Position numbers and translations under genes: made by a program
From: an archaeon
Lineage (GTDB): Archaea > Nanobdellota > Nanobdellia > Woesearchaeales > GW2011-AR9
NCBI GenBank assembly: GCA_018670085.1
Contig: JABHRS010000022.1
Coordinates: forward strand, 3,992 to 67,991
Direction: 5' to 3'
DNA length: 64,000 nt
The notes under the pieces: model-generated
Told to the model about the DNA's origin: nothing
The model's input: only the letters and a program-made list of their open reading frames with translations
The model's database searches: none
Shown: piece by piece, positions 44,050 to 60,728 of the stretch
Layout of the letters: each line of letters starts with the position of its first letter
How positions within the stretch are numbered: the first letter of the stretch is position 1

Positions 44050-44185
44050 TCTTTAATTCGAAGTTAATCATCCGTTAAATGCAATTATTCCAGTATCTCT
44101 TCATCTCAATTAAGGAATTGTATTATTTTTTTGTATATTTTTATTAGTTTTTTTTGTATATTTTTATCTAATTTTAAAACGAAGG

Positions 44186-44193
44186 TTTATAAA
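44186..44193 (+). promoter_or_regulatory. candidate TATA box of the giant surface protein gene
   Basis: GG-TTTATAAA-G 34 nt upstream of the ATG at 44227. It lies inside the TTG-initiated track ORF, which argues against the 44131 start. Confidence 0.45.
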
Positions 44194-44226
44194 GTTCTCG
44201 ACCATTTATCTATTAGATTTACCGTG

Positions 44227-47200
44227 ATGGTTGGGACAAAAATTATGCCTGAAGCAGATGGTTTTGCTTCTTCAAGTAAAGATTGGTTTGGTTCTTCTAT
44301 TTTCGGATCTAAACTTTTTCAACTATCTTTATTATTTTTAGTTATTTTCTCTCTATTCTCAATATCTGTTTTAGCAGACACCGAAGGATGTTATCTTTTT
44401 ACAGGGGGATCAGAAGACTATCTCTGTCAAGATAATGTTTTAGAAAGTGATGCAGAAGCTGATTGTGATTTATATGGGGCTGATTGCGATTTCGATTCAA
44501 AATTTATTGCAGGAGCGTCCTGTTCTGATTACCCAGAAGTTTGTGAAGAAGTAACATGCTCAGTTGATTGTGATTCACACAGCATTGGAAAATGTGAAGA
44601 TCTTGGTGGAGTTGAAGTAACTGATCCTGAATATGATTTATGGTGCAGCGAAGGTTGTTGCTCAGTTGGAAGTTTTTGTGAGTACGTTGACCTTCGATAT
44701 GATTGTGTTGATCGGGCACTACAACAAGGATATACTGAAAGTGACATTTATATGGAAATTGGAGATACTGATCCAGTGTCTTGTCAGACAGATATTTGTG
44801 GGATCACATTAAGTAGTGGAACCGTTGGAGGATATATTCTAGATGGAACAACTGGACTTGCAATTAGTGGAGCCACTATTGAAATAAGCAGCTCAGTTAG
44901 TGACACAAGTTCTAGCGACGGATATTTCTTTTTTGCAGATGTCACACCTAACAGTTATGTTTTACAAGTCAGTGCATCTGGCTATTCTAGTACCAGTTCG
45001 ACTGTTTCAATTGGATCTGGAGAATCCCTTGAAGTTAATTTTAGTTTGGCTGAAGCAGGAGAAAGTTTCACCATTGGTGGAATAATTCATGATAACACAG
45101 GTTTAGAAGTATCTGATGTGAGTATTTGTTTTGAAAGTTCAGCTGGCGATGAATCATGCACAGTAAGTGATAGCGTTGGAGTTTACGGTGTTTTTGATTT
45201 ACAAGCAAGCGACTATACTATCACAATGACAAAATATGGATACTCCACTACCACTGATTCTCTTTCTGTGTCTGCGGATGCAACTCACAATTTAGTAATT
45301 AATTCAATTGATTTTCAAGGAGTCTCAGGAATAACCTTACTTGATGAAAATGGAAATGGTCTGTATGATTCCTCTACAGAAGATGTGATTTATGGCGCTT
45401 CAATTTATGTTGATGGAGTATACCAAGGTAATTCACAGTATTCAGGTGGAGACTATGAAGTTTATCTTGAGGAGGGAGATTATGTTATCCATGCAACATA
45501 TCAGGATTATGCGAGCGGAGAGTATGATATCGCAGTAACATCAGGGGTAACTGTAGATTTAGATTTATTACTTGAAAAAGAAATTGGTGAATGTAGTTAT
45601 GGTGAAGAAAATGATCAAAAAGCTGTAGAAATATTTGACGGAGTTACAAGTCAAGGAGATCCAGAGATCACACTTAGCTGGGCAAAACCATGTGCAGAAG
45701 TTAGCGGATATATTATTGAAAAAGAAGGAGAAGTATTTGGAGAATCATTTTCTCCACTTGCAATAACAACAGTTGACACAGACGTGGAATGGGGAGAAAC
45801 TTATACTTATTCAATTGTAGCAGTTTATACTGATGGGCCACTTGACGAACCAAGATTTAGTGAAAGTGCAACTGAAGTTACCGTGACTCTTGGAAGTTTT
45901 AACTGTGAAGGGCGAGAAGTTGGTGATACATTTTGTGTAGTTGGCGATACCAGCTCTGGTTCTGACGAAAGAAAATCCGTATATACCTGCAATGAAAATA
46001 ACGATATTTTAGTCAGTAGTGATTGTTCAAGTTTAGATAACGAAGATAGTAGCTTTTTTTGTAGTTCAGCATCTGACAGTTATGCGCTTTGTAAAGACGC
46101 CGGAAGTTGTAGTATATTAGGGCAAGCTGCTGAACCATTTGGCCTTTATTATTCAAGCGAGAGTTGTTATGGCGGTTTAGATAGTTCTGATGGGTATGAA
46201 TCATTTTGTTATTATGATCATGCTGAGTCTAGTATTGTTGATGCATGTTATTCATGTGAAGAAGTTACCAACTGTTTTGATTATATTGGACAGGAAAGTT
46301 GTGAGATTAATAACTGTCTTGGCGTTGGATGTAGTTGGATTGATTCAAGCAATACCAGTTTAGATTATGGAATTACCGGAAGTGAAGGATTTTTAGATTC
46401 AGGATACTTATTTCCTTCAACACTTGAAACAGGACATGGATATTGTGCTCCAGATGAGTATGGAGAAGATGAAGAAACAGGTTTTAATGATTATTGTGGA
46501 CTATGTGGGCCAGAAGCAGATTTATTTGAAAACAGCTATTGCACTGCAGATGTTTGTAGTAATTTAGGTCGATGTTTTGCAGATACTGAATTAACTGCAT
46601 GTGATACATGTGGAGATATTGCAAGTAGCGAAGCAAACTGTTATGCCTACAACTCTGAATTAGAATGTACTGGCGGAGATGCAATTTCAATTACTACAGG
46701 AACTGTAAGCGGCTCAGCAGATAGTTGTTCTTGGAATAAATGTAGTTGGCAAACGCTAAGTACTGATGATGAGTCTGGTGATAGCGCAGTTAATGGCTAT
46801 TGTTACAAAGATGGAAACGCCGACACTATTGATGATTGTTCAGAATTCAGTAGCGGAGAGTATACTGCATGTATCAAAGATGTGTATGCGCCAGTTACAA
46901 GTTTAGATGTAGAATATTTTGCTATTGTTTCAACTACCTTCTCCAATATTACATTTTTGGGAGTTGATGAAGCTAATCCAATGGGGCAATTAGGTTACTG
47001 TTTAGCAAGTAGCGAGACTAGCGATTGTACTGATTTTGAATATGTTGATTATAATGGACTGGAACCGTCTGAAGAATTAATTGTTGATATAGTTGCAAGT
47101 AGTTTTCTAGAATCAAGTGAAATTGATGGAGTCAGTTATGTTCTGAGATATTTCTCCTTGGACAAGTATCTTAACCAAGAATCAGTGCATGAAACAATTG

Positions 47201-50200
47201 TGTTTATTGATAACCATTTACCTGAATATACAGTTGAATGGGAAAGCTCAGTTGACGGCGACATATCTGAACTGATTGTTTATCTTGGTGATTTGAATGA
47301 GGCTATGAGTTGTGACTTTGGCCTTACTGAAGTGTATCCTGCTGGCGACATTTTTGAATCAAGTGTAGGGCGCGATGAAGATAAAGATGCAAGCTTCTCA
47401 GATCTTGATGGAATTATTTACAATTTAACTGTTGCTTGTCGTGATGATTATGGGAACATTGGAGAATACGATGAAGAGATTGTTTTTGATTTAGAACAAG
47501 ATATTACTTTAGTCTACCCAGAGTATGATGGAGTGGTTGCTGAAACTAGTATCGAATTTGCAATTACAACATTAGTCTCAGCTAGTTGCGAATTATACGA
47601 TGTTGAAAGTGGTGCAAAGGTAGCTGATTTTTCAAGTTTGGATGATGCTAACAAAGAACATAAAACAGAACCAGTAGGCGGATTCTATGAAGGAAATTAC
47701 GCAGGAACAGTCAAAGCTGTTTGTGTTGAGTCTTTAGATGGAGATGTTCTTGAAGATTATTTTTATTTTAAGGTAGATTTTACCGCACCAGAAACTCAAA
47801 TAGTTCTAACTGAGGGAGAGAGAACTGAAGAACCAAATGGATTTGGATGGGAAGAATATTTTGTGGAAACTGTTCAAGTCGATTTTAGTTGTGTTGAAGA
47901 TGATGGTTTTACTTGTGCGAATACATATTATTGTTTAGGGGATGGTTGTGAGTACGCAAGCGCCGGAGGGTATATTGAGTATACTGAAAGTGTAGAATTG
48001 GTTGAATCTACTGAAATTTGTTATTACTCAATTGATGAAGCAGGTTCAGTTGGATACCCTGATTGTGGAGAAATATTAATCGAAGGATTTGGAATTATTT
48101 TAGTTAGTCCAACACAATATGTATATGAGGGAGAGACTTGGGGAATAAGTAATATTGCAACATTTGATTGGGAATTAATGACAAAGATTGATACGAATGC
48201 CTGTGCATTTGATTTTAACTCTGGATTTGACATGACTGCACAACCAGAATATAAACAAATTTCGAGTAGTGATGTTGGGGATAATTATTATTTATACAGT
48301 AGTTTTCCAGGTGATGTTCTTGAATCATTTGATAAGGGTGGTAGCATAAAAACATTGTATGTTGCATGTCAAGATTATTTAGGCGAAGTTGGACCTGATC
48401 AAAAAATGAATTTAGAGTATGATCCTAGTGCACCTGAAATAAATGATGCATTCGCTGAACCTGATTCATTGAGTGAAGGAGTTGAAACTTATCTGTTTAC
48501 AACAACCGACGACAAAACTCTTTGTAAATTTAGTGATAATAGCGAAGGAAGTGGAAGTTCAGAATTTGATACAATGGAATATAGTTTTCCTGGATTTGAA
48601 CTAGATGAAGGCAAACAAGAATTATTCATTGACCATGATACTAGCTTCGGATTTAGTTTCTCCGGGGCATCAAAGGATTATTTACTAAATGTTCAATGTA
48701 TGAATGGTGCTGGCGATTTATCTGCGGTTGAAGAAATTGACTTTAGTGTTGATTATTCGATTTCAGGATATATCGCATCAACAAGCCCTAACGGATATAT
48801 TAGTGATACTGATGTGACATTAGAAGTTGTTACAAGCAAAAATGCTGAATGTAGTTATGATGAAATTGTGATGGAATCAACTGGTGGAACTACTCACACT
48901 CAATATTTAGGAGTACTCGAAGAAGGAGAATACCAATATTTGATTGTCTGTAGTATTGAAGGAAGTGATAGAGAAGGGGAAGCTGCATTTATTATTGATT
49001 TAACTGCACCAACTGTAACTGAGGTTGACGACGGAAGTTATTCTTGTAGTTTAGATACTGTATCACTCTTAGTATATTCTGATGAAGATGCAATTAGCAG
49101 TTTCTATTATGAACTATACGAAACAGGAGATGTGGTTGGGGTAGATGAAAATGATAGTACTAATGTTTCAGACCTGGATTCTTCAAGTGGAACATTAATT
49201 TCAAGCGGTTCAATGCCAGCAACAGAAGGGACAAATATTAGTGGACTTAGTTTAGTTGAAAATGGAAGCTATTATTTCTCAGTTTCAGTTACTGATGAAG
49301 CAGGAAATTCTGGCGCTGCATTATCAAGCAACGGATTTGTTGCAGTTCCAAGTGACTCAGTAAATTGTGCTAGTGATGAAGTAGCCCCAGAAATAACAAT
49401 TAGTACTGAAGGTAGTTGTTCTGGAGAAGCTGCAACTATAACTTGTTCTGATGACCTTGGTTGTAGTAGTGTATTGTATGGTTTTGCAAGTGATTCAAGT
49501 TCATGTGTAGCGGATTCAACTTACTATGGTTCTGCAATTAATTTTGAAAGTTCTGGATGGGTGTGTTATATCGCTGAAGATGTGAACGGAAACAATTTAA
49601 CTGGTTCAGTAAAAGTAACTGTTACTGATGATGATGGAGATGGAGTTTTAAACAGTTGTGACGTTTGTAGTTCTACAACTGCGGGTTCTGCGGTTGATTT
49701 GGATGGTTGCGGTTATGGACAAGACCCTGACACTGATGATGGGGATACAACTGACACTGACAATGATGGACTTCCAGATAGTTGGGAAAATTTGTATGAT
49801 GAAATAAGTTGCCCACTAAATTATGCAAATAGTGATAGTGATTCTGATGGTGTGTTAGATACTAATGAAGATTATGATGATGATGGTTATACTAATTATG
49901 AAGAATACCGAGCAGGGTATGATCCTTGCGTGTTTGATGGGAGAACCGTAGATCCAGGTACTGATCCAGATCCAATAATAGATGATGACCCAATTGATCC
50001 AAATGAAGAAAAATCACTTTTAGGATTGGTGTTTTTGTTAGCTGGTTTATTACTAATATCAGGTGGAGCTGGTGGATTGTATTATGCTTATGCTAAAGAC
50101 CCTAACGGGAAAGCTGCAGTTGCACAATTTTTTGGTGCAGGAGTTGGATCTCTTGGTGGACAAATAGCCACTACCAATGGATATAGGAGACCTACTAGAA

Positions 50201-50628
50201 GTAGAAGAAGTTCTAGGCAAATTAATACTGGTGAACTGCAAGGGCAACCAGCTAAAAATTCTTGGATGCAAAATTTGAGAAGTAGCGTTGCTGGGCTTGG
50301 AAGAGCGAAACAAAAAAAATCAAGGAGAAAAGAACGAAGTGGAATCTTTGCTGGATTTAGTTCAAGAACTCAGGGATTTCCTCATTTTGATGATGTACTC
50401 GGATCCCGTAAAAAACCAATGGCAAAATTAGGAGATTTAACTTCAAGGTATGCTGAACATAAAGAAACTGTGAATAAAGGATTAAAATCACACGAGAAAG
50501 ATCTGTTCGCCAAGTTAGATACTATCACTGAGCGAGCAAAAACACATCCTTTAACTGAAGTGTCTTCACCTAAAGAAGCAAAAGATATTTTCAAAAAATT
50601 AAAAGAATTAAGTGATAAGAGGAAGTGA
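44227..50628 (+). CDS. giant (~2130 aa) Cys-rich acidic surface protein with C-terminal TM anchor and basic cytoplasmic tail
   Basis: Signal peptide LFQLSLLFLVIFSLFSISVLA-DTEG. Three carboxypeptidase-regulatory-like beta-sandwich repeats (~44812-45580), an FN3-like module (~45660-45840), then long Cys/Asp/Glu/Ser-rich regions. Thrombospondin-type-3-like Ca-binding repeats (DDDGDGVLNSCD, DTDNDGLPDSWE, DSDSDGVLDTNEDYDDDGYTNYEEY; ~49615-49930). TM LLGLVFLLAGLLLISGGAGGLYYAY (~50014-50094) and a ~175-aa Lys/Arg-rich tail. Confidence 0.85.
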   Translation: MVGTKIMPEADGFASSSKDWFGSSIFGSKLFQLSLLFLVIFSLFSISVLADTEGCYLFTGGSEDYLCQDNVLESDAEADCDLYGADCDFDSKFIAGASCSDYPEVCEEVTCSVDCDSHSIGKCEDLGGVEVTDPEYDLWCSEGCCSVGSFCEYVDLRYDCVDRALQQGYTESDIYMEIGDTDPVSCQTDICGITLSSGTVGGYILDGTTGLAISGATIEISSSVSDTSSSDGYFFFADVTPNSYVLQVSASGYSSTSSTVSIGSGESLEVNFSLAEAGESFTIGGIIHDNTGLEVSDVSICFESSAGDESCTVSDSVGVYGVFDLQASDYTITMTKYGYSTTTDSLSVSADATHNLVINSIDFQGVSGITLLDENGNGLYDSSTEDVIYGASIYVDGVYQGNSQYSGGDYEVYLEEGDYVIHATYQDYASGEYDIAVTSGVTVDLDLLLEKEIGECSYGEENDQKAVEIFDGVTSQGDPEITLSWAKPCAEVSGYIIEKEGEVFGESFSPLAITTVDTDVEWGETYTYSIVAVYTDGPLDEPRFSESATEVTVTLGSFNCEGREVGDTFCVVGDTSSGSDERKSVYTCNENNDILVSSDCSSLDNEDSSFFCSSASDSYALCKDAGSCSILGQAAEPFGLYYSSESCYGGLDSSDGYESFCYYDHAESSIVDACYSCEEVTNCFDYIGQESCEINNCLGVGCSWIDSSNTSLDYGITGSEGFLDSGYLFPSTLETGHGYCAPDEYGEDEETGFNDYCGLCGPEADLFENSYCTADVCSNLGRCFADTELTACDTCGDIASSEANCYAYNSELECTGGDAISITTGTVSGSADSCSWNKCSWQTLSTDDESGDSAVNGYCYKDGNADTIDDCSEFSSGEYTACIKDVYAPVTSLDVEYFAIVSTTFSNITFLGVDEANPMGQLGYCLASSETSDCTDFEYVDYNGLEPSEELIVDIVASSFLESSEIDGVSYVLRYFSLDKYLNQESVHETIVFIDNHLPEYTVEWESSVDGDISELIVYLGDLNEAMSCDFGLTEVYPAGDIFESSVGRDEDKDASFSDLDGIIYNLTVACRDDYGNIGEYDEEIVFDLEQDITLVYPEYDGVVAETSIEFAITTLVSASCELYDVESGAKVADFSSLDDANKEHKTEPVGGFYEGNYAGTVKAVCVESLDGDVLEDYFYFKVDFTAPETQIVLTEGERTEEPNGFGWEEYFVETVQVDFSCVEDDGFTCANTYYCLGDGCEYASAGGYIEYTESVELVESTEICYYSIDEAGSVGYPDCGEILIEGFGIILVSPTQYVYEGETWGISNIATFDWELMTKIDTNACAFDFNSGFDMTAQPEYKQISSSDVGDNYYLYSSFPGDVLESFDKGGSIKTLYVACQDYLGEVGPDQKMNLEYDPSAPEINDAFAEPDSLSEGVETYLFTTTDDKTLCKFSDNSEGSGSSEFDTMEYSFPGFELDEGKQELFIDHDTSFGFSFSGASKDYLLNVQCMNGAGDLSAVEEIDFSVDYSISGYIASTSPNGYISDTDVTLEVVTSKNAECSYDEIVMESTGGTTHTQYLGVLEEGEYQYLIVCSIEGSDREGEAAFIIDLTAPTVTEVDDGSYSCSLDTVSLLVYSDEDAISSFYYELYETGDVVGVDENDSTNVSDLDSSSGTLISSGSMPATEGTNISGLSLVENGSYYFSVSVTDEAGNSGAALSSNGFVAVPSDSVNCASDEVAPEITISTEGSCSGEAATITCSDDLGCSSVLYGFASDSSSCVADSTYYGSAINFESSGWVCYIAEDVNGNNLTGSVKVTVTDDDGDGVLNSCDVCSSTTAGSAVDLDGCGYGQDPDTDDGDTTDTDNDGLPDSWENLYDEISCPLNYANSDSDSDGVLDTNEDYDDDGYTNYEEYRAGYDPCVFDGRTVDPGTDPDPIIDDDPIDPNEEKSLLGLVFLLAGLLLISGGAGGLYYAYAKDPNGKAAVAQFFGAGVGSLGGQIATTNGYRRPTRSRRSSRQINTGELQGQPAKNSWMQNLRSSVAGLGRAKQKKSRRKERSGIFAGFSSRTQGFPHFDDVLGSRKKPMAKLGDLTSRYAEHKETVNKGLKSHEKDLFAKLDTITERAKTHPLTEVSSPKEAKDIFKKLKELSDKRK

Positions 50629-50630
50629 GG

Positions 50631-51194
50631 ATGGGATCACGAAAAAAAGCAGTGAAAAAACAAGGTTTTTTGAGCATTTTTCCAAAAGGGAAAAAGGGGA
50701 TGGGTATTGGTCAAGTATTTGCATTTATCGTTGCAGGACTCACTTTCGCATTTGTTTTAATTTTTGGATATGGAGCAATAGCTGATTTTTTAGATAAAGG
50801 GGAAACTGTTGAATTTTTACAGTTTAAAAATGAACTTGAAAGTAGCATTAAACAAATTGCCTCAGAATATGGGTCAGTTAGACAAACAACATTTTATCTT
50901 CCAGGAAATTATGAAGAAGTGTGTTTTATTGATTTGGATGAGCCCTACGATTCTTCGAGCGAGCTTTGTAGTCAGAACATTATTGCGTGTGATGTTTGGG
51001 AAACAGCATCTGAAGAAGGTGGATACACTGCAGCTGATGAAAATGTTTTTCTGGAACCTGCAGCACCGGTTGCAATTAAAGTTTATACTATTGATTTAGA
51101 TGAAGAATACCTCTGTGTCCCAGTTCAAGGGGGAAGATTCACTTTGAGGTTAGAAGGAAAAGGTTCAAGAACATATGTTACTGAGGGGTCTTAA
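50631..51194 (+). CDS. class III signal peptide (type IV pilin-like) protein
   Basis: The ATG at 50631 is preceded by GTGAGG and overlaps the giant gene stop region. N-terminus KKQGFLSIFPKGKKG-MGIGQVFAFIVAGLTFAFVLIFGYG. Confidence 0.6.
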   Translation: MGSRKKAVKKQGFLSIFPKGKKGMGIGQVFAFIVAGLTFAFVLIFGYGAIADFLDKGETVEFLQFKNELESSIKQIASEYGSVRQTTFYLPGNYEEVCFIDLDEPYDSSSELCSQNIIACDVWETASEEGGYTAADENVFLEPAAPVAIKVYTIDLDEEYLCVPVQGGRFTLRLEGKGSRTYVTEGS

Positions 51195-53604: not shown

Positions 53605-53735
53605 AAATAGATTATTTTTTTCTTCTCTTCCCCGTAACGTTTATATACGTTAAAGCATTGTTTCTCTTGTATATTTGTATTAACAAAAGTATAAATTATA
53701 ATCTAATATTTGATATTAAATCTGAGGTGGAATAA

Positions 53736-54155
53736 ATGGATCTTATAAAAAAAATATTAAACTCAAAAAAAAGTCTAAACAGCTCTTTGGTGCCAGCTGA
53801 TAAAAAGGGACAAGGGCTTTCTTTAACAGTAATAATTGTAGCAGCACTTGCATTAATTGTACTAGTTGTGTTAGTATTGATCTTCACTGGAAGAATGGCA
53901 ATTTTTACTGACGGCCTTGGAGAATCAGGCGCAGCTGAACTTACAAAATACAAAATCACTTATGGTGATTGTCATCCAACTAGTACTCAAGAAACAGTTT
54001 TCTTGAGTGATATGAAACAAGCTGCAAATGATAAATCAAACACTGCAGAATTAGAAATCTCCGCACAAGAAGATTTTGAAGATGTGATTGATGATTGCCG
54101 TGCAGCAGGTCTCGATGAGAATTCATGTGAGTTTGCAGGTTGTGATTGGAATTAA
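53736..54155 (+). CDS. class III signal peptide (type IV pilin-like) protein, small, Cys-containing
   Basis: ...ADKKG-QGLSLTVIIVAALALIVLVVLVLIF. The ectodomain has 4 Cys (GDCHP...DDCRAAG...NSCEFAGCDWN). Confidence 0.7.
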   Translation: MDLIKKILNSKKSLNSSLVPADKKGQGLSLTVIIVAALALIVLVVLVLIFTGRMAIFTDGLGESGAAELTKYKITYGDCHPTSTQETVFLSDMKQAANDKSNTAELEISAQEDFEDVIDDCRAAGLDENSCEFAGCDWN

Positions 54156-54212
54156 TTTATTTTTTTAATCATTTTTTAATTATTTTTTCAATTTTGAATT
54201 ATAGAGGATACA

Positions 54213-54494
54213 ATGAATATTAGAAAAATTAGTCGTAAGGGGCAGTCAAACATGTTTTGGATTATTATCGGAGCTGTGATTGCACTCGTTGTAATGATCG
54301 TATTACTATTACTTTTTACAAGTAAAACCAAAATCCTTGAAGGAGGAGTTTCTGGATGCGAAGGAAAAAGTGGAGAATGCGTTGATCCAGATATTGGATG
54401 TGGCTCTGGAACACTAGAAGCCCCATTTGAGTGCAGTAATCCATCATATACATGTTGTTTAGGATTTGGTAATGACGACGATAGTTTATCATAA
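54213..54494 (+). CDS. mini pilin-like protein, Cys-rich (93 aa)
   Basis: MNIRKISRKG-QSNMFWIIIGAVIALVVMIVLLLLF. The ectodomain has 7 Cys in ~45 aa. Confidence 0.7.
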   Translation: MNIRKISRKGQSNMFWIIIGAVIALVVMIVLLLLFTSKTKILEGGVSGCEGKSGECVDPDIGCGSGTLEAPFECSNPSYTCCLGFGNDDDSLS

Positions 54495-54508
54495 TTGTAG
54501 GTTTGAAT

Positions 54509-54628
54509 ATGTCAAAGAAAGGAGTCAGTAATGCAACCATGGCACTTATAGTCTCAATACTATTGTTATTGATTATTTTTGGCTTTTTTATGTTGAAGTT
54601 AAAGGGAATTGGATCAACGTTTGGTTGA
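54509..54628 (+). CDS. 39-aa pilin-like micro-ORF (not in ORF track)
   Basis: Hand translation: MSKKG-VSNATMALIVSILLLLIIFGFFMLKLKGIGSTFG-stop. Same KKG plus hydrophobic helix design; 14 nt after the previous stop. Confidence 0.45.
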   Translation: MSKKGVSNATMALIVSILLLLIIFGFFMLKLKGIGSTFG

Positions 54629-54664
54629 TTTTATTTATATTGATTATTTTGGTGAATGGTAAGG

Positions 54665-54826
54665 ATGGATAAAATGAGATTATTTTCTGGACGCAAAGGT
54701 GCTGAGATGTGGCAGCTGGTTTTGATTATTATTAGTATTATCATATTAATATTTTTGATGATTTTTTATGGACAAGTCGATGATAAAATTGGTGGCGTAT
54801 TTGAAAAATTCTTTGGGTGGCTATAA
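54665..54826 (+). CDS. 53-aa pilin-like micro-ORF (not in ORF track)
   Basis: Hand translation: MDKMRLFSGRKG-AEMWQLVLIIISIIILIFLMIFYGQVDDKIGGVFEKFFGWL-stop. The stop lies 3 nt before the next ATG. Confidence 0.45.
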   Translation: MDKMRLFSGRKGAEMWQLVLIIISIIILIFLMIFYGQVDDKIGGVFEKFFGWL

Positions 54827-54829
54827 AAA

Positions 54830-55678
54830 ATGGGATTTAGTTTACCATTAAATAAAATTGTAACATATGTGATCATAGCGTTCGCGTTGATATTCACAGT
54901 TTTGTGGTTAATTGATCCTGATGGAGGAGTCTTATCAGGGTTAAAAGAGATCGTTATTGAAGACTTAGATGCAGGATTTGGAGTAGAAGAAGTGCTAGCG
55001 GACGAAGTTAGTATTTCAGCTGAGCATAAAAAAGAAATTGATTCTATGAGTGCAGCGTTTAAATCTATGTTAAGAGATGAATTAGCAGATAATTGTTTTC
55101 ACCATTTTAGTGGATTTACTTCGTTTGACAATCAAATAGAAATTATTATGGTTGAAGTTGGCGAAGACGTATCGGTTGAAATTAAAGGAGGCCCTGAAGC
55201 AAAGCAAGTATATGATAGGTATACAATTGAAGATATGGGCCTTTGTGTAGTTCAAGGAGATAATGGAGAAGATTCAAACTTTTATCATCGGTTTTTGAAA
55301 GATGATACCCTTGACCCAATTTTGTATCAAAACGAAGTGCCCTTTGATGTTACTGGACCGTACTTCAAAGAAGTTTCATCATTAATTATTTCATTTGATT
55401 CACCCTGGTTAGATGTCAATAAGAACAGGATTAATTTTGGAGAAGGTTATGTTGATTTTGATGGGGATGACTGGTTATTTTCTCCAGATAATAAAAATAT
55501 CTGCTTCTTTCCTACAACCCGTGGTGGGAATGTTTGTCAGGCAGGCACACAAACAGGTGGATTTATTGACAACGATTGTTTTGAAGATAAAAGTGGAGAC
55601 CTTTCATCAATTGTTGATGAAAGATATAAAACCACAATTCCATACAGAAGTCAACATGGATCGTTAAATAGTTGTTGA
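54830..55678 (+). CDS. N-terminally anchored extracellular protein in the pilin-like cluster
   Basis: MGFSLPLNKIVTYVIIAFALIFTVLWL. It has a hydrophobic N-terminal helix but no basic leader (an in-frame stop lies immediately upstream). 282 aa, several Cys. Confidence 0.65.
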   Translation: MGFSLPLNKIVTYVIIAFALIFTVLWLIDPDGGVLSGLKEIVIEDLDAGFGVEEVLADEVSISAEHKKEIDSMSAAFKSMLRDELADNCFHHFSGFTSFDNQIEIIMVEVGEDVSVEIKGGPEAKQVYDRYTIEDMGLCVVQGDNGEDSNFYHRFLKDDTLDPILYQNEVPFDVTGPYFKEVSSLIISFDSPWLDVNKNRINFGEGYVDFDGDDWLFSPDNKNICFFPTTRGGNVCQAGTQTGGFIDNDCFEDKSGDLSSIVDERYKTTIPYRSQHGSLNSC

Positions 55679-55712
55679 GTGAGTAGTAGATGATAATTTG
55701 AAAAAAGAGAAG

Positions 55713-56705
55713 ATGAAAATGAAATCTAATAAAAAAGCAGAGAAAAAACGTGGTCTTTTGAGCTATTTACCACAAGGGAAAAAAGCGATTGGAAACGCAG
55801 TAGTAATCTCTTTGATATTGACCTTATTATCCTTTGGACTTTTAGCAATAACGATTTCAAAAGCGATAGCCGAAGGAGATGATTTGGCGCTTGAAACTGC
55901 TTGTCGTCAAAGTATTAATATTCGCGCATCAACTGTACTTTGGGCAAAAAGTACATTTCTTGAAAAAGAAGCACAATTAAATTTGGTGCCGCCACTATGT
56001 ACAACAATCGATAAACGCTTGGAAGGAAGCAAAGAAGAAGTGATTGAAGAAATAGCAGATTTGTCTGCTAGATGTTGGTGGATGTTTGCAGAAGGAAGAT
56101 ATGATGAAATTCTGTCTGGTAATGAAGATAAAATTGGACAAATGATGGGAATGACCAAAGGAGAAAATGATTGTTTTATCTGTTATTCATTGCTGATGGA
56201 CGAAGATGATTTTGAGGGAGAAACAAGTATTCCTGGAAATGAGATCATGGATTTCATGTTTGAAAATGAATACGGAAAAGTAGGAGAAGGTGTAACCTAT
56301 TTTGATTATATACAAGAGTTTGGTGGTCCAGGGAGGTTCTACAGTTTAGCAACTTCAGAAAATGGGTCTGGGATAAATTCGGCAATTGAAGCTCGTAATG
56401 CTTATGCGATTGTATTTGCTGCAAAAAATTCAAAATTACCTCAGGATGACGATGTATTTCTTGGTATCGGCGCTGCAAAAATTGCAGTTGGACTTGGAGG
56501 CGCATTAGTTCTTGGCCTGGCAACAGGAGGGGTTGGATGGGTTACAGTTGGAGCACTTGGTGTTGCAACTTTAGTTACAGCATCAGGATATTCTAATGTT
56601 AAGGCGGTTTTGTATGATGGTGATAGGGACGTTAGTTCAATATATCTAGATAATTTACGTGAAGCACAAGCACATTGTCATGAAGGAGACTTAGGTGGAA
56701 ATTAA
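55713..56705 (+). CDS. class III signal peptide-like protein with additional C-terminal Gly-zipper membrane region
   Basis: The track ORF starts at TTG 55698; the first ATG is at 55713. N-terminus KKRGLLSYLPQGKKA-IGNAVVISLILTLLSFGLLAI is paralogous to the 50631 gene leader. C-terminal LGIGAAKIAVGLGGALVLGLATGGVGWVTVGALGVATLV. Confidence 0.6.
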   Translation: MKMKSNKKAEKKRGLLSYLPQGKKAIGNAVVISLILTLLSFGLLAITISKAIAEGDDLALETACRQSINIRASTVLWAKSTFLEKEAQLNLVPPLCTTIDKRLEGSKEEVIEEIADLSARCWWMFAEGRYDEILSGNEDKIGQMMGMTKGENDCFICYSLLMDEDDFEGETSIPGNEIMDFMFENEYGKVGEGVTYFDYIQEFGGPGRFYSLATSENGSGINSAIEARNAYAIVFAAKNSKLPQDDDVFLGIGAAKIAVGLGGALVLGLATGGVGWVTVGALGVATLVTASGYSNVKAVLYDGDRDVSSIYLDNLREAQAHCHEGDLGGN

Positions 56706-56706
56706 G

Positions 56707-57057
56707 ATGGCAGTTTACAAACTCAATAAAAATAAAAGACAAGAAAAAAGCTTAGTTAATTTTTTTAAGCGACCTTCTAAGAAGGCACAATCACAAATGT
56801 TTTGGATATTAATGGTTGCAATTATTGCAATCATTGCTGCAACCTTTATCATTCTCTGGTTTAGAAATAGTGGTGGTGCAGCTTTTGGAAGTTTAGATAC
56901 TACTATTGATAAATTCGGAGATTGTGATAATGATGATATAGCTAATTATTTTGATGATTGTCCATGTGAAGTTGGAGTTGCCGAGTTTGATGGGTGCGCG
57001 GATGCTAACAAAGTGGATGAATGCACGGAAGATCAGATAAAAAAATGCGCAGAGTAA
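56707..57057 (+). CDS. mini pilin-like protein, Cys-rich (116 aa)
   Basis: The ATG at 56707 is preceded by GGTGG. ...RPSKKA-QSQMFWILMVAIIAIIAATFIILWF (QSxMFWI shared with the 54213 gene). The acidic ectodomain has 6 Cys. Confidence 0.7.
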   Translation: MAVYKLNKNKRQEKSLVNFFKRPSKKAQSQMFWILMVAIIAIIAATFIILWFRNSGGAAFGSLDTTIDKFGDCDNDDIANYFDDCPCEVGVAEFDGCADANKVDECTEDQIKKCAE

Positions 57058-57082
57058 GTTAACTTATTTTTTGGTGAATTTA

Positions 57083-57913
57083 ATGGTAGGGATCTCAAGT
57101 AAGAAAAAAGGACAAATCATGACAGCGTTTTTGGTTAAAATGATTCTTGCACTTATGCTTCTTCTTGCTTCAACTGCGATGATTGGGTCAATATTTTCAA
57201 TTTTATTGGATCAGTCAGGAGAAAATTTTGCTGATTTTACTAGTGATTTGGAATTTGTAGGCATGCACGATCCAGGTTACAAATTAAGTAGTTTGTTAAT
57301 TTTAGATGAAGGGTCAGCATTAGTTTATTTTGAAGGAGAAGATTCAGTGACATTAAGATCTGACTATCTGGTTGAAGTAGATTCTTTTGGTGAGCAACTT
57401 GGGTCTAATAATTTTGAATTTTTAAGACCTGGTGGATGTTCTGAATTCTCAAGTGAAGGTTGTATCTGTTTATACCAAAATATCATCACAGAAATTGTAG
57501 ACACAGAACGAAAATCAAGCGCATTAGCGTTATTTGTAGGCGAAGCAGAATTTCACACTTATTATTCTGCAACTTCCTCTTCAATTAGATGCAGTGCTAG
57601 CGATGTTGGTTCAATGTCAATTACAAGTTGTAATTTAGGAACCGCTAACGAAAAAACAAAGAGTATTGAACAAAGCTGTGAAAATGGTTTTGTGATTGAA
57701 AGAAATATTTTGGGTTCAGATGTAGCAACCATGTTATTTAATGAAAGAAGGAGATCAGTTTTTTTAGAATCTAATGACAATGGATTATATGTTGAAGCAC
57801 AGAACGCATATAATGGCCCATCTCCATTGGATGCAAAAGAGATTGACGCTGAAGAATCCCTTCCTGAAGAAGTACAAGATTTGTACGCAGAAGCTTCATG
57901 GGGAGGACCTTAA
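57083..57913 (+). CDS. class III signal peptide (type IV pilin-like) protein
   Basis: MVGISSKKKG-QIMTAFLVKMILALMLLLAS. The KKGQI start closely resembles Methanococcus-type pilin leaders. Confidence 0.7.
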   Translation: MVGISSKKKGQIMTAFLVKMILALMLLLASTAMIGSIFSILLDQSGENFADFTSDLEFVGMHDPGYKLSSLLILDEGSALVYFEGEDSVTLRSDYLVEVDSFGEQLGSNNFEFLRPGGCSEFSSEGCICLYQNIITEIVDTERKSSALALFVGEAEFHTYYSATSSSIRCSASDVGSMSITSCNLGTANEKTKSIEQSCENGFVIERNILGSDVATMLFNERRRSVFLESNDNGLYVEAQNAYNGPSPLDAKEIDAEESLPEEVQDLYAEASWGGP

Positions 57914-57915
57914 TT

Positions 57916-58347
57916 ATGACATTTAGGGGAAGTCTATTTTTATCAAAAAAAGCACAACTAGGAATTGTTTTCTTAATGGGGGCTTTAGCATTACTTGCTA
58001 TTGTAAGTTTGATTTTTTCGATAGCACAAAAAACTGGAGATTCTGAAGAAGTTGTGAAAGCAGTATTTGCTGAAGAAGTAAGGCTTGCTTTGAATTCTTT
58101 GATCAGTGTGCCAGGCGATGGGTTAATTCAGTTACCGCAAAATGAAGACTATAACATTACTGAGTTTACTGTTTCATTGCATAATGGATATGTAGAAGTC
58201 TGCAGTAGTTGTGAAATAGATTATTTCACTGCAAGAAAAGGTTTCCATTTGCCGGAAGATTATGAAGCAAGAGGAACAGTTAAAGAACAAGAAATTATCT
58301 GTTTGGTGAAAGATGCTAAAGTTTTACGGTTAGAGGACTGCGATTAA
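57916..58347 (+). CDS. class III signal peptide (type IV pilin-like) protein
   Basis: The ATG at 57916 is preceded by GGAGG. MTFRGSLFLSKKA-QLGIVFLMGALALLAIVSLIFS. Confidence 0.7.
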   Translation: MTFRGSLFLSKKAQLGIVFLMGALALLAIVSLIFSIAQKTGDSEEVVKAVFAEEVRLALNSLISVPGDGLIQLPQNEDYNITEFTVSLHNGYVEVCSSCEIDYFTARKGFHLPEDYEARGTVKEQEIICLVKDAKVLRLEDCD

Positions 58348-58348
58348 G

Positions 58349-58855
58349 ATGGCGCCCTCAAGTTTTCGATTGTTTAAGCTTAACAAAAAAGGAGAAGCTA
58401 ATGATGCTAACATTCCTGCTGTTATGCTCTACTACATGATGGCCTCATTTATTATTGTAATATTAATTTTTGGGTTTGCATCAATTTTAACAGGATGGCA
58501 AAATCAGGTGTCGGAATTTCCAGATGAACTTAAAGGAGAAATAATAGCTTTAAGATTTTCACAAAGTGTTGATTGTTTTGCCTATTCAGATCCAGTTTCA
58601 GGTAAGGTGTACCCAGGAGTAATCGATTTAGAGAAATTTAAAGATAGCAGAATGGATACATGCTATTTTACTGGAGTTGATGGGCAGGATTTTTTTCAAT
58701 TCGAATTATCTCTTCCAGAGTATAAAAAAACGGTTGAAACAGATAATAATTATAGAAATCTGATTGATCATACGATTGAGAAACAAATATTAGTTTACGA
58801 TGAAGGGAAATTTGTACCGACAAAATTATTTATTTATGTACAAACAAGAATATGA
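58349..58855 (+). CDS. class III signal peptide-like protein
   Basis: ...KLNKKG-EANDANIPAVMLYYMMASFIIVILIFGF. The start lies 1 nt after the previous stop. Confidence 0.6.
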   Translation: MAPSSFRLFKLNKKGEANDANIPAVMLYYMMASFIIVILIFGFASILTGWQNQVSEFPDELKGEIIALRFSQSVDCFAYSDPVSGKVYPGVIDLEKFKDSRMDTCYFTGVDGQDFFQFELSLPEYKKTVETDNNYRNLIDHTIEKQILVYDEGKFVPTKLFIYVQTRI

Positions 58856-58874
58856 TTAAAATTCAACTGATACA

Positions 58875-59456
58875 ATGAAACTAAAAATATTCAATTCAAA
58901 GAAGGCTGCCGTTGGGAAGGCAATGGATCTGATTTTGTTAATACTATTTAGTGTAGCTGGATTTTTATTAGTGAATACCTTTTTTTTACAAGCAGCAGAA
59001 GGCGGAGTGGAAGGATTAACTACTAATGCCTATGAAATTAAATCAAGTAATGAAGCATTGTCAATTTTAATGGCGCCGATAAGTGTTGATTCAGGTACTG
59101 ACTCAAGACTAGAGGTCCCTTTGTACCAAATACTCGCAAGCGGTAAGGAATCATACAGTTACCGCACAGAGATCATAGCACTATTTGATGAATTGTATGG
59201 AGAAGATTTGTGGTCAATTAGAATTTGTAGTGATGATATTTGTAAATTAGATATGCATACAGCAGGGGATGGCTGTTATGATAGTAGTTGCCAAGTAAAT
59301 AATATTATTCAATCATACAATGCTTATGTGTATGACAGTTTGGATTCAAGATCTACTAGTTTAGATTATATCACAGGGAAAGAAATAATTCCATTAATCA
59401 ATTTGGATGGAGAAGAAATTTATCTTCACATAGTTTTTGTTGGGAGCGTGATTTGA
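58875..59456 (+). CDS. class III signal peptide-like protein
   Basis: MKLKIFNSKKA-AVGKAMDLILLILFSVAGFLLVNTFF. Confidence 0.6.
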   Translation: MKLKIFNSKKAAVGKAMDLILLILFSVAGFLLVNTFFLQAAEGGVEGLTTNAYEIKSSNEALSILMAPISVDSGTDSRLEVPLYQILASGKESYSYRTEIIALFDELYGEDLWSIRICSDDICKLDMHTAGDGCYDSSCQVNNIIQSYNAYVYDSLDSRSTSLDYITGKEIIPLINLDGEEIYLHIVFVGSVI

Positions 59457-60728
59457 ATGGTGAATAGAAAAAAACTTGGAAAGAAAGGAGAAGTTTTGCA
59501 CTATTTGCCATTAATTATGATGTTAGCATTAGGGATATACTTAATGTTCTTTATCTCATCAAACACTAAAGAAGCAATTGAAGAAAAAGGAGTTGCCAGT
59601 TTAGAATTTTTAGAATTATTTAGAGAAGTACAAAAGAGACAGTTACAAATCGAATATACAGGACAAAAAGTTGCAATTGCTACACTCAATGATTACTTGT
59701 CTGGAAAAGTTTCGGGAGATTGCGGCGAGATGGATGGAGTTAGGTTGTTAATTGGGCAAGAAGATTATTGCAGATTAACAGTTGATGAGTTTGTAGAAAC
59801 TTTTGGAGTAAATTACAGCCTTGCTTACAACGAATTGTATCCAACTGAAAACATAGTTACTAGTTTTATTGGAAAAGACGAGAATAAAGTTACAATGAAT
59901 AAATCCTTGTTCATCAAAGCTCCTGAACAAGATTATATCTTTTCTTATGGTGGAATGAGTGGAGATAATATCTTACATGGAATTGCAAGTAAAAAAAATG
60001 AGTACATGAACGAAGGTGTTTTGGCAAGTTACTCCATTGAACCATCTTTTGATATTCGGCTAGATTTGGAACTTGAGGATAATTTCAGTAAATTGTTTAG
60101 TGATAGTATTTCCCTTGTATCAGCTTGCGCAAATTCATTGGTTTTACAAGATTGTTTAGACCAAGAAGTAATTGGAAACTCAGATTATTCTGAATGGGAG
60201 TATGGTGTTTGTGAATTTCAAGGATATAACGAAAAAAATAGAGTTGCGACATTTTGCGTTGAAAGTGAGATGCAGGTGTTCAATTCCGGAATTGTTGAAA
60301 CTTTGAAATATTCATTTGCGCTTGATTTTACGCCATTTGAATCATTTGTAGTTGAGAATTTACAAGTAAGTTATGATCCGTTAGATCCGCTACTAGGTTA
60401 TGATTTGTGGTTTGATGCACAGGACACTGCTAGCTCATATAAAATTTATATCACAGATTACGCGATTCCTGACTTTATCGGATCAGCAGATGAATTCGAG
60501 TTGCAGCGAATTAATAGCGACACTTTCGAATTTGTAGAAATCTCTGTTGACAGTTTAGATGCTAATTGTCCTGAACCACCTGTAGTTGAAGTTGGGTATA
60601 GCTGTGCAGACCAGGTTCGTTATGTATATCCATTGGATGCCTTGATTAGTGGAGAAACATATTATTTTGCCGTTACAAGTTTAATAGGAGATAAAGAATC
60701 ACAGATTAGTGGTTTTGAGACTAATTGA
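59457..60728 (+). CDS. class III signal peptide-like protein, 423 aa (last gene of the cluster)
   Basis: MVNRKKLGKKG-EVLHYLPLIMMLALGIYLMFF. The start immediately follows the previous stop (TGAATG). Confidence 0.65.
   Translation: MVNRKKLGKKGEVLHYLPLIMMLALGIYLMFFISSNTKEAIEEKGVASLEFLELFREVQKRQLQIEYTGQKVAIATLNDYLSGKVSGDCGEMDGVRLLIGQEDYCRLTVDEFVETFGVNYSLAYNELYPTENIVTSFIGKDENKVTMNKSLFIKAPEQDYIFSYGGMSGDNILHGIASKKNEYMNEGVLASYSIEPSFDIRLDLELEDNFSKLFSDSISLVSACANSLVLQDCLDQEVIGNSDYSEWEYGVCEFQGYNEKNRVATFCVESEMQVFNSGIVETLKYSFALDFTPFESFVVENLQVSYDPLDPLLGYDLWFDAQDTASSYKIYITDYAIPDFIGSADEFELQRINSDTFEFVEISVDSLDANCPEPPVVEVGYSCADQVRYVYPLDALISGETYYFAVTSLIGDKESQISGFETN

What the first reader, a model, noticed from the sequence alone, without database searches (positions are those of the whole stretch)
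44131..60728. 16.5-kb single-direction locus: giant anchored surface protein plus 16 genes nearly all starting with archaeal class III (pilin-like) signal peptides, with no assembly machinery nearby
Seen in sequence: the ~2130-aa surface protein gene (44227-50628) is followed by sixteen co-directional genes with minimal or overlapping junctions (TAATG at 53024-53028, TGAATG at 59454-59459, gaps of 1-3 nt at 58347/58349 and 54826/54830). About 14 of the 16 begin with a short Lys/Arg-rich leader, then Gly or Ala, then often Gln or Glu, then a ~20-residue hydrophobic helix. Examples are KRG-QLTLSFNWIFVLIAG, KKA-QMQMLETIGVIF, KKA-QAEMIGLVVIV, KKG-QGLSLTVIIVAAL, RKG-QSNMFWIIIGAV, KKA-QSQMFWILMVAI, KKG-QIMTAFLVKMIL, KKA-QLGIVFLMGAL, KKG-EANDANIPAVML and KKG-EVLHYLPLIMML. 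Established knowledge: this is the design of archaeal prepilin/class III signal peptides cut by FlaK/PibD/EppA-type peptidases, such as Methanococcus pilins starting ...KKGQ. Unusual points: the number of distinct pilin-like genes in one array; their heterogeneous ectodomains (39 to 423 aa) that match nothing I recognise; physical linkage to a giant adhesin-like protein; and no FlaI/PilB-type ATPase, FlaJ/PilC platform or prepilin peptidase in the 64-kb window. Inference: this may be a dedicated cell-surface filament, a pseudopilus, or an adhesin-presenting apparatus, plausibly for cell-cell (host) attachment in a small-genome archaeon.
Basis: partly seen in the sequence, partly recalled or inferred. 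Interest (0 to 1): 0.88.

Follow-up and report, generated by a model that had tools for sequence, protein, structure and literature searches.

The report
Woesearchaeal giant-adhesin plus 15-pilin-like operon
A tiny-genome (DPANN, Woesearchaeota) archaeon carries a conserved 17-gene operon: one giant membrane-anchored surface protein followed by about 15 different, unannotated proteins that look like type IV pilus subunits. It is most likely the structural parts kit of a new lineage-specific surface filament or attachment organelle, and the genes for its assembly motor are not linked to it.

Summary
After a 2133-aa Sec-secreted, C-terminally anchored protein come 16 co-directional genes. Fifteen of them begin with a basic leader ending [KR][KR]-[G/A], followed by a ~20-30-aa hydrophobic helix. 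In a six-frame control this motif occurs in 15 of 265 window ORFs, and all 15 lie in the locus. Gene order 1-17 is kept almost perfectly in about 78 loci from Woesearchaeota/Nanoarchaeota MAGs, down to ~25% identity. The consensus N-K-K-[G/A]|Q is conserved family by family. AlphaFold models of two members (pLDDT 86 and 88) show a ~56-residue N-terminal helix on a beta-rich head, which is pilin architecture.

No protein matches any Pfam, NCBIfam or PDB entry by sequence or fold. The strict FlaFind pattern fits only 2 of 16. No secretion ATPase, platform protein or prepilin peptidase lies within 84 kb here or in any related locus.

Best reading (~0.6): this is the subunit and adhesin gene set of a lineage-specific type IV filament-like organelle, processed and assembled in trans. 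In one subclade, array members carry peptidoglycan hydrolase domains, which hints at action on bacterial cell walls. I rate it a new variant of a known kind, with interest about 0.62.

The parts
44227..50628 (+). g1: giant surface protein, 2133 aa. It has a Sec-type signal peptide, a Cys-rich very acidic ectodomain with CarboxypepD_reg x3 and PEGA domains, a TM anchor at residues 1928-1953 and a ~180-aa basic cytoplasmic tail.
   Evidence: homologues lie upstream of the array in 40 of 56 loci
50631..51194 (+). g2: 187-aa pilin-like protein (…GKKG|MGIGQVF…)
   Evidence: motif in 89% of 55 orthologues
51286..52419 (+). g3: 377-aa pilin-like protein (KRG|QLTLSFNW). The AF2 model has a helix at 5-60, a beta domain and a C-terminal helical bundle; four Cys are invariant.
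52460..53026 (+). g4: 188-aa pilin-like protein (KKA|QMQMLET). The AF2 model has a helix at 6-61 and an antiparallel beta sheet, with an invariant C68/C79 pair. It is a paralogue of g5.
53026..53604 (+). g5: 192-aa pilin-like protein (KKA|QAEMIGLV), paralogue of g4
53605..53735 (+). 131-nt AT-rich spacer with a TATA-like TTTATATA at 53640 and T-runs. It is a likely internal promoter/terminator boundary between modules g1-g5 and g6-g17.
   Evidence: three species end the array after g5
53736..54155 (+). g6: 139-aa small pilin-like protein (KKG|QGLSLTVIIVAAL). It has the most conserved N-terminus and is a candidate major subunit.
54213..54494 (+). g7: 93-aa small pilin-like protein with a 6-Cys knot-like tail. 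It is a paralogue of g6 and g12 and is often duplicated in relatives.
54503..54628 (+). g8: 41-aa helix-only pilin-like peptide (KKG|VSNATMALIV), Flp/EpdE-like in size. It is not called in public annotations.
54656..54826 (+). g9: 56-aa helix-only pilin-like peptide (RKG|AEMWQLV)
54830..55678 (+). g10: 282-aa bitopic protein with an N-terminal TM but no KK[GA] site in this clade (the site is retained in the divergent clade). It is probably an uncleaved membrane-anchored component.
55719..56705 (+). g11: 328-aa protein with a pilin-like N-terminus (GKKA|IGNAVV) plus a conserved Gly-rich C-terminal TM segment or segments. It is a candidate membrane base component.
   Evidence: 34 of 46 orthologues have 2 or more TM segments
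56707..57057 (+). g12: 116-aa small pilin-like protein (KKA|QSQMFWIL), paralogue of g6 and g7
57083..57913 (+). g13: 276-aa pilin-like protein (KKG|QIMTAFLV). Its positional equivalents in L008 and L051 carry Glucosaminidase + VanY domains.
57916..58347 (+). g14: 143-aa pilin-like protein (KKA|QLGIVFLM). Its positional equivalents in L008 and L051 carry Amidase_3.
58349..58855 (+). g15: 168-aa pilin-like protein (KKG|EANDANIPAVML)
58875..59456 (+). g16: 193-aa pilin-like protein (KKA|AVGKAMDL)
59457..60728 (+). g17: 423-aa pilin-like protein (KKG|EVLHYLPL), the last gene of the array

Best explanation
The locus is the structural gene set (subunits plus adhesin) of a Woesearchaeales-specific type IV filament (TFF)-like surface organelle. 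Shown: fifteen of the sixteen small proteins start with a basic leader ending N/S-K/R-K/R-G/A, followed by a hydrophobic helix. This site, the gene content and the gene order are conserved over about 78 loci. Two members fold, in prediction, as a ~53-residue N-terminal helix carrying a beta-rich, disulfide-bonded head. The families share only that N-terminal module. Inferred: the leaders are class III signal peptides cut after G/A by an A24 prepilin peptidase of EppA/PibD type. The mature hydrophobic helices then pack into a helical core, extruded from the membrane by a FlaI/PilB-type ATPase and a TadC/FlaJ platform encoded elsewhere. The helix-only or tiny-headed proteins (g6-g9, g12) would form the shaft. 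The larger, one-per-genome proteins (g2-g5, g13-g17) would form tip, priming or decorating complexes. g10 (site lost) and g11 (extra C-terminal TMs) would stay in the membrane as base parts. The giant Sec-secreted, TM-anchored g1 would be the adhesin or S-layer-like partner through which, or with which, the filament acts. The likely role is contact with other cells.
For: Motif specificity: 15 of 265 six-frame ORFs, all in the locus. Conservation of the site: 75-100% of members in 15 families. Positions -3 (K/R 89%) and -4 (N/S 55%) were not imposed by the search rule, and +1 is Q in 77-92% of g3-g5. In M. maripaludis, positions -1 to -3 are the conserved determinants and a +1 Gln is essential for EppA processing (PMC4390842). 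AF2: g3 has pLDDT 86.4 and a helix at 5-60; g4 has pLDDT 88.2 and a helix at 6-61 plus a beta sheet. In both, the helix starts at the predicted cut site. Even Cys counts in almost all ectodomains, with invariant Cys pairs. hhalign: most family pairs align only over the 25-40 leader+helix columns at 80-96% probability, while g4/g5 and g6/g7/g12 are full paralogues. The N-terminal profile's best non-photosystem PDB hit is an archaellin precursor aligned in register at its KKG|A site, E = 0.07, so sub-threshold. Order 1-17 is kept in 56 + 22 loci. Precedent: archaeal T4P loci with large adhesin or S-layer-like proteins and many Cys-rich minor pilins, with pilin loci separate from ATPase/tadC loci (PMC4858521); DPANN dark-matter pilin islands (PMC6393860).
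Against: No sequence or fold link to any known pilin: Pfam and NCBIfam are empty, hmmsearch against PDB is empty, and Foldseek's best E values are 0.03 and 0.14 with TM < 0.2. The strict FlaFind pattern fits only 2 of 16, because polar residues follow the site. No ATPase, platform or peptidase lies within 84 kb or in any of ~78 related neighbourhoods, and I could not check the rest of the genome. One paper states that T4P components are missing in DPANN genomes (bioRxiv 10.1101/2020.05.14.094862). Fifteen distinct subunits in fixed order is more than any characterised TFF uses. g1 is TM-anchored with a cytoplasmic tail, which is unlike PilY1-type tip adhesins.
Confidence: 0.6

Rival explanations
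1. Non-filament envelope complex. The proteins use pilin-like N-termini, cleaved or not, only as membrane anchors, as the class III-signal sugar-binding proteins of Sulfolobus do. Together with the giant g1 they build a fixed-stoichiometry surface or pseudo-periplasmic scaffold or S-layer anchoring complex, and no extended pilus forms.
For: There is strict one-to-one orthology and a fixed order for 15 different subunits. g1 has a C-terminal TM anchor and a cytoplasmic tail. g11 is polytopic and g10 has lost the site. No assembly ATPase is ever linked. The locus sits in a housekeeping context next to RPA. S-layer-like Ig-fold proteins are known partners in TFF loci (bioRxiv 10.64898/2026.04.22.720090). 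PibD substrates include non-pilus binding proteins (PMC4858521).
Against: Helix-only peptides of 41 and 56 aa (g8, g9) and tiny-headed g6, g7 and g12, often duplicated, look like shaft subunits and not like anchored enzymes or binders. The 53-residue helix extends well beyond a membrane span.
Confidence: 0.25
2. Ordinary uncleaved type II signal-anchor membrane proteins. The Lys-rich leader would just be the positive-inside rule, with no relation to prepilin processing.
For: The strict FlaFind regex fails for 14 of 16. There is no Pfam Class_IIIsignal, Pilin_N or archaellin hit. There is no peptidase nearby.
Against: The positive-inside rule does not require a small residue at -1 (G/A/S by the selection rule, G or A in 93%), K/R at -3 in 89%, N/S at -4 in 55% or Gln at +1. 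No other N-terminally anchored or secreted protein in the window has the motif. The families share a homologous leader+helix module. The modelled helix is about twice a membrane span.
Confidence: 0.1
3. A mobile or viral island, or an assembly or annotation artefact.
For: All 16 proteins are orphan 'dark matter'.
Against: The identical locus was assembled independently in 41 blocks of the public assembly collection. The same chromosomal neighbours (RPA-like, YdjM) recur in distant genomes. GC is the same as in the flanks. No relative occurs on viral contigs. The g4/g5 superfamily has 1115 clusters at 50% identity.
Confidence: 0.02

Closest known systems
Clade 1 / 'System 1' archaeal T4P (Epd pilus of Methanococcus maripaludis and relatives; PMC4858521, PMC4390842, bioRxiv 10.64898/2026.04.22.720090)
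   Same: Both have many different class III-signal proteins in one operon. The cleavage context is K-G/A followed by Gln at +1, the EppA-type determinant. Both include helix-only or tiny major-pilin-like subunits (EpdE lacks a globular head) and large adhesin-like proteins in the locus. System 1 is reported in a few DPANN.
   Different: No homology to the Epd families or to DUF2341 adhesins is detectable. There are 15 pilin-like genes, against about 4-6. The ATPase, the two platform genes and EppA, which are part of the 11-gene epd cluster, are absent here and in all ~78 related loci.
Thermoproteales clade 4G T4P loci (PMC4858521)
   Same: Both have a large protein with a C-terminal TM (S-layer-like), a second large secreted protein in some relatives, many small, fast-evolving, Cys-rich predicted minor pilins, and extreme sequence divergence.
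   Different: The lineage is different (DPANN), there are no shared families, and those loci are defined by their ATPase/TadC genes, which are missing here.
Bacterial minor-pilin/PilY1 operon (fimU-pilVWXY1E) and the T2SS pseudopilins GspG-K
   Same: In both, a set of different pilin-like proteins with one copy each is encoded together with a large non-pilin adhesin that carries a Sec signal. The bacterial proteins are thought to form a priming or tip complex.
   Different: The bacterial sets have five pilin-like proteins, not fifteen. PilY1 is not TM-anchored. The bacterial leader ends G|F/M with Glu at +5. No homology was detected.
DPANN 'dark matter' pilin islands (PMC6393860, Fig. 2A)
   Same: Both are runs of unannotated signal-peptide proteins in DPANN genomes that are interpreted as divergent pilins.
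   Different: Those islands were recognised because FlaI/TadC and known surface proteins sit beside them. The present operon has no such marker, is much larger, and is shown here to be conserved in order across a whole order-level lineage.

Membership tests
Archaeal class III (prepilin-type) signal peptide proteins | Short basic leader ending K/R at -2 and a small residue (G/A/S) at -1, directly followed by a ~20-aa hydrophobic stretch | tested here: met
   15 of 16 window proteins; kept in 75-100% of orthologues in 15 families
Archaeal class III (prepilin-type) signal peptide proteins | Match to the FlaFind pattern [KRDE][GA][ALIFQMVED][ILMVTAS]x3 (written from memory of Szabo et al. 2007) | tested here: not met
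   Only g3 and g13 match; the others have polar residues at +2 to +5
Archaeal class III (prepilin-type) signal peptide proteins | Actual cleavage by an A24 prepilin peptidase (PibD/FlaK/EppA) encoded in the genome | not testable with these tools
Type IV pilin / TFF subunit fold | Extended N-terminal alpha-helix of ~50 residues, with its first half hydrophobic, packed against a beta-sheet head | tested here: met
   AF2 models for g3 (helix 5-60, pLDDT 86) and g4 (helix 6-61 + beta sheet, pLDDT 88); only two of the 15 were modelled
Type IV pilin / TFF subunit fold | Detectable structural or sequence similarity to a solved pilin, pseudopilin or archaellin | tested here: not met
   Foldseek vs PDB: no hit with E < 0.03, no pilin listed. 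hmmsearch vs PDB: nothing. The N-terminal profile hits an archaellin precursor only at E = 0.07.
Named archaeal pilin families (Pfam Class_IIIsignal/DUF361, Pilin_N, Arch_flagellin; NCBIfam equivalents) | HMM match at or near the curated threshold | tested here: not met
   No such family even at E <= 1; homologues of g3, g4 and g6 carry no Pfam annotation
Complete TFF system (as defined in PMC4858521 and the 2026 MacSyFinder models) | Co-localised secretion ATPase (T2SSE/FlaI) and platform protein (TadC/FlaJ) | tested here: not met
   Absent from the window, from +-10 kb beyond it, and from 56 + 22 related loci. The only Walker-A hit is an ABC ATPase.
Epd-type (System 1) pilus | Gln at +1 of the pilin cleavage site (EppA determinant, PMC4390842) | tested here: inconclusive
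   Q at +1 in 8 of 15 window proteins and in 77-92% of g3-g5 orthologues, but only 37% overall. EppA itself was not found nearby.

The most novel reading that the evidence does not exclude
The operon encodes a previously undescribed DPANN cell-contact organelle: a heteropolymeric pseudopilus built from about 15 different pilin-like subunits and coupled to a giant adhesin. Woesearchaeales would use it to attach to, and breach the envelope of, host cells. In some lineages the subunits themselves carry peptidoglycan glycosidase, amidase and peptidase domains (L008, L051), which points to bacterial hosts. A more radical variant is that it assembles without a canonical TFF ATPase and platform, which would agree with the report that these are missing from DPANN genomes.
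Probability: 0.15. Interest if true: 0.85.

Novelty: new variant of a known kind. Interest (0 to 1): 0.62.

Why it matters
How DPANN archaea recognise and hold on to their hosts is largely unknown, and their genomes are dominated by unannotated genes. This locus turns 16 'hypothetical proteins' into a coherent, testable module. One of its families alone has more than 1,100 clusters at 50% identity in public data, and the module is found in more than 70 related loci from Woesearchaeota/Nanoarchaeota MAGs and metagenomes. It is probably the main surface appendage or attachment device of a very widespread group of aquatic and sediment archaea. ATPase-anchored surveys of archaeal type IV filaments cannot see such unlinked subunit arrays, so DPANN pilus capacity may have been underestimated. 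The variants that carry peptidoglycan hydrolases give a concrete lead to bacteria as interaction partners.

Tried and rejected
1. Pfam and NCBIfam scans of all 17 proteins at E <= 1 found only CarboxypepD_reg and PEGA in g1.
2. Foldseek of both AF2 models against the PDB found no meaningful hit. The long single helix may hamper Foldseek, so this does not exclude a pilin fold.
3. Profile hmmsearch of the g3, g4 and N-terminal alignments against PDB sequences found nothing significant.
4. The homology search with g6, intended to reach annotated pilins, returned only unannotated Woesearchaeota proteins.
5. Looking for machinery: regexes for the T2SSE Walker A and the A24 GxGDxK motif over all ORFs of 78 loci, and Pfam on 90 flanking ORFs. 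The only hit was an ABC-transporter ATPase in L038. The Pfam summary lists only 25 of the 81 families, so a single-locus hit cannot be fully excluded by that call alone.
6. Extending the window by 10 kb each way found nothing. The first attempt on the right edge failed because the 697-aa ORF start differs from the called gene.
7. The mobile or viral origin idea is rejected.
8. My first synteny script timed out on the giant-protein alignment, so g1 was then searched by phmmer only. Some iterated family profiles (e.g. g9) drifted through the shared N-terminus, so family labels among g6, g7, g9 and g12 are approximate.
9. One literature search was too broad and gave nothing relevant. Szabo et al. 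2007 is not held.

Full report
OBSERVATION. The window is a chromosomal piece of a low-GC (~33%) archaeon. It encodes PolD DP2 and DP1, Orc1/Cdc6, MCM, TBP, aIF5B and GyrA. From 44227 to 60728 all coding is on the + strand. It starts with a 2133-aa protein (g1) and continues with 16 genes (g2-g17) separated by -1 to 131 nt. I count 15 of 16 proteins, all but g10, with [KR][KR][GA] followed within 8 residues by a strongly hydrophobic 16-mer. As a control I applied the same rule to all 265 ORFs of >= 40 aa in the six frames of the whole window. It returned exactly those 15 ORFs and nothing else, and none of the 49 ORFs of >= 100 aa outside the locus matched. The pattern is therefore a property of this locus. 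It is not explained by chance or by this organism's membrane proteins in general.

THE GIANT PROTEIN. g1 has a Sec-type signal peptide and an extremely acidic ectodomain (401 D+E against 86 K+R) with 80 Cys. It carries three CarboxypepD_reg domains and PEGA domains, a single TM helix at residues 1928-1953 and a ~180-residue Lys/Arg/Ser-rich cytoplasmic tail. It is a membrane-anchored surface protein and not a pilin.

NO KNOWN FAMILY. Pfam and NCBIfam give no hit for g2-g17 even at E <= 1. That includes the class III signal, archaeal pilin and archaellin models. Homologues of g3 (47 clusters), g4 (171) and g6 (252) are all unannotated proteins. Where a source names the organism it is archaeon, Woesearchaeota or Nanoarchaeota, apart from one short contig labelled Hodarchaeota. 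None carries a precomputed Pfam domain. A profile of the g4 family finds 1115 representative clusters (50% identity level) in 1.84 billion proteins, nearly all 150-190 aa. So this is a large, widespread and undescribed family.

SYNTENY. The identical locus has been assembled independently many times: the index lists the identical g3 protein in 41 blocks of the public assembly collection. More distant g3 homologues (43%, 38% and 27% identity) sit in the same arrangement. A scan of GTDB species representatives with the g3 profile gave 53 loci, all from Woesearchaeota/Nanoarchaeota MAGs. Some record titles say 'uncultured Methanosarcinales', which I take to be generic submission labels. Iterative HMM searches with all 17 window proteins against the ORFs of these loci show the order 1-2-3-…-17 kept almost perfectly in more than 40 species-level genomes. 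A divergent clade has 2-3-4-5-7-7-11-10-12-13-14-15-17 preceded by other giant proteins of 1100-3200 aa. Twenty-two further loci from a metagenome scan show the same order. Three species stop after g5. In the window, the only long spacer (131 nt, 53605-53735) lies between g5 and g6 and contains a TATA-like box and T-runs. This suggests two modules, g1-g5 and g6-g17. The commonest neighbour is an RPA-like OB-fold gene, and there are no mobile-element genes. The g4 family is absent from viral contigs.

THE N-TERMINAL SITE. Across 567 sequences from the 15 families, aligned on the putative cut site, the profile is: -4 N 38% / S 17%; -3 K 76% / R 13%; -2 K/R; -1 G 58% / A 35% / S 5%; +1 Q 37%; then polar or mixed residues to about +5; then I/V/L. 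Positions -3 and -4 were not imposed by my selection rule. Within families the site is kept in 75-100% of members, and Q at +1 reaches 77-92% in g3, g4 and g5. Orthologues read, for example, KKA|QMQMLET, RKG|QINMVET, RKA|QIRMTET and KKA|QMKMGET for g4. This matches the design of archaeal class III signal peptides: conserved -1 to -3, and cleavage that leaves the hydrophobic segment on the mature protein (PMC4858521, PMC6098224). The +1 Gln is the determinant for the pilin-specific peptidase EppA in M. maripaludis (PMC4390842). The strict FlaFind regular expression, written from memory, fits only g3 and g13, because most proteins have polar residues at +2 to +5. A 41-position profile of the 15 window N-termini searched against all PDB sequences gives only sub-threshold hits. 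The best hit that is not a photosystem TM peptide is an archaellin precursor (5z1l_A, E = 0.07), aligned in register at its own SKKG|A site. That is suggestive, not significant.

STRUCTURE. AlphaFold2 with real alignments gave confident models. g3 (pLDDT 86.4, pTM 0.83) has one continuous helix over residues 5-60, a beta-rich domain and a C-terminal helical bundle. g4 (pLDDT 88.2) has a helix over residues 6-61, a small alpha/beta insertion and an antiparallel sheet. In both, the helix begins at the predicted cut site, so the mature helix is ~53 residues. From general knowledge, that is the canonical alpha-1 length of type IV pilins. Invariant Cys pairs (g4 C68/C79; four in g3) and even Cys counts in nearly all ectodomains fit disulfide-bonded extracellular heads. 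Foldseek against the PDB finds nothing for either model (best E = 0.03 and 0.14, TM < 0.2), and profile searches against PDB sequences are empty. The pilin resemblance is therefore one of architecture, and membership in a known family cannot be shown. All-vs-all hhalign of the 16 families shows that g4/g5 and g6/g7/g12 are true paralogues. Most other pairs align only over the 25-40 columns of leader plus helix, at 80-96% probability. That is the usual relationship among pilins of one system.

SUBUNIT CLASSES (inference from anatomy). g8 (41 aa) and g9 (56 aa) are helix-only. g6, g7 and g12 have tiny Cys-knot tails, the most conserved N-termini and variable copy number. They resemble head-less major pilins such as EpdE/Flp (bioRxiv 10.64898/2026.04.22.720090). 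g2-g5 and g13-g17 are single-copy with 100-380-residue heads, which is minor-pilin-like. g10 has lost the KK[GA] site in the main clade but keeps it in the divergent clade. g11 has one or two additional Gly-rich TM segments near its C-terminus in 34 of 46 orthologues. Both look like parts that remain in the membrane.

MACHINERY. No T2SSE/FlaI-type ATPase, T2SSF/TadC/FlaJ platform or A24 peptidase is encoded in the window, or 10 kb further left or right. Motif searches over all ORFs, and Pfam on 90 flanking ORFs, found none in any of the 56 + 22 related neighbourhoods. The one Walker-A hit is an ABC ATPase. I could not scan whole genomes, so whether these organisms have the machinery elsewhere remains open. 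The literature is divided. He et al. state that T4P components are missing in DPANN (bioRxiv 10.1101/2020.05.14.094862). Makarova et al. and the 2026 TFF survey report them in some DPANN (PMC6393860; bioRxiv 10.64898/2026.04.22.720090). Separate pilin and ATPase loci are known in other archaea (PMC4858521).

A FUNCTIONAL CLUE. In one subclade (L008/L009 and L051, the latter labelled Woesearchaeota) the proteins at the g13 and g14 positions are enlarged. One is a 612-619-aa protein with Glucosaminidase and VanY/Peptidase_M15 domains. The other is a 349-350-aa protein with Amidase_3 (E = 1e-15 to 4e-19). Both sit behind KKA/KRGQ + TM N-termini. The enzyme domains are C-terminal additions to the ~150-residue N-terminal module. 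Direct similarity to the window's g13 is weak (20% identity, E = 0.04). Archaea of this group have no murein, so these are plausibly directed at bacterial walls. The window's own g13 and g14 lack such domains.

INTERPRETATION. The best-supported reading (~0.6) is the subunit and adhesin set of a lineage-specific type IV filament-like organelle, processed and assembled by trans-encoded machinery. The main rival (~0.25) is a non-filament, membrane-anchored envelope complex that only borrows pilin-type N-termini. Its support comes from the fixed 15-subunit composition, the TM-anchored g1 and the complete lack of linked machinery. Plain signal anchors (~0.1) are disfavoured by the conserved -1, -3, -4 and +1 positions and by the 53-residue helix. 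A mobile element or artefact is excluded. The closest known systems are the Epd/System 1 pilus, the Thermoproteales 4G loci and the bacterial minor-pilin/PilY1 operons. This locus differs in having no detectable homology to any of them, roughly three times as many subunits, and no cis-encoded ATPase, platform or peptidase. I class it as a new variant of a known kind.

Noticed in passing
L008:17474-20428 (same in L009); L051:17127-20057: Two consecutive array genes encode peptidoglycan hydrolases with pilin-like N-termini in Woesearchaeota-type contigs. One has Glucosaminidase + VanY/Peptidase_M15 and the other has Amidase_3. They sit at the positions of g13 and g14.
   Followed up: partly
window 54503-54628 (+): The 41-aa gene g8 (TTG start) is not called in the public annotations of the same organism (L001-L005, L064). 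Its family recurs at the same position in 24-29 related loci, so it is a real gene that annotation has missed.
   Followed up: yes
window 53605-53735 and 54156-54212: AT-rich spacers flank g6, with a TATA-like TTTATATA at 53640 and oligo-T runs. Three related species (L028, L038, L045) end the array exactly after g5. This suggests g6 has its own promoter and that there are two modules (g1-g5, g6-g17).
   Followed up: partly
L045:1246-3486: An additional 746-aa protein with an NKKGQ + TM N-terminus lies just upstream of the giant gene. Proteins of this signal type therefore also exist outside the 16-gene array.
   Followed up: no
window 41755-41875 (+): Rfam finds a tRNA spanning 121 nt (40 bits), while ARAGORN reports none. 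It is probably an intron-containing archaeal tRNA.
   Followed up: no
window 13702-15999 (-): A 765-aa ORF with no Pfam match sits between the PolD large (DP2) and small (DP1) subunit genes on the same strand.
   Followed up: no
window 60784-61425 (-) and 61425-63518 (-): Two convergent genes directly downstream of the array encode further Sec-signal surface proteins. One is 213 aa with a C-terminal TM. The other is 676-697 aa. Neither has a Pfam match.
   Followed up: partly
window 38582-40318 (-): By eye from the translation, a 578-aa protein looks like an RNA 3'-phosphate cyclase (RtcA)-like N-terminal half fused to a Nudix-like C-terminal half. I did not test this with Pfam.
   Followed up: no
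L052:1-9000: Other loci of the divergent clade have giant surface-protein genes here, but this locus shows only short low-complexity ORFs, mostly on the opposite strand. It could be a degraded gene, a frameshifted assembly or unusual sequence.
   Followed up: no
L063:7216-7974: A LAGLIDADG homing-endonuclease-like gene lies about 3 kb left of the window's start in the same contig.
   Followed up: no
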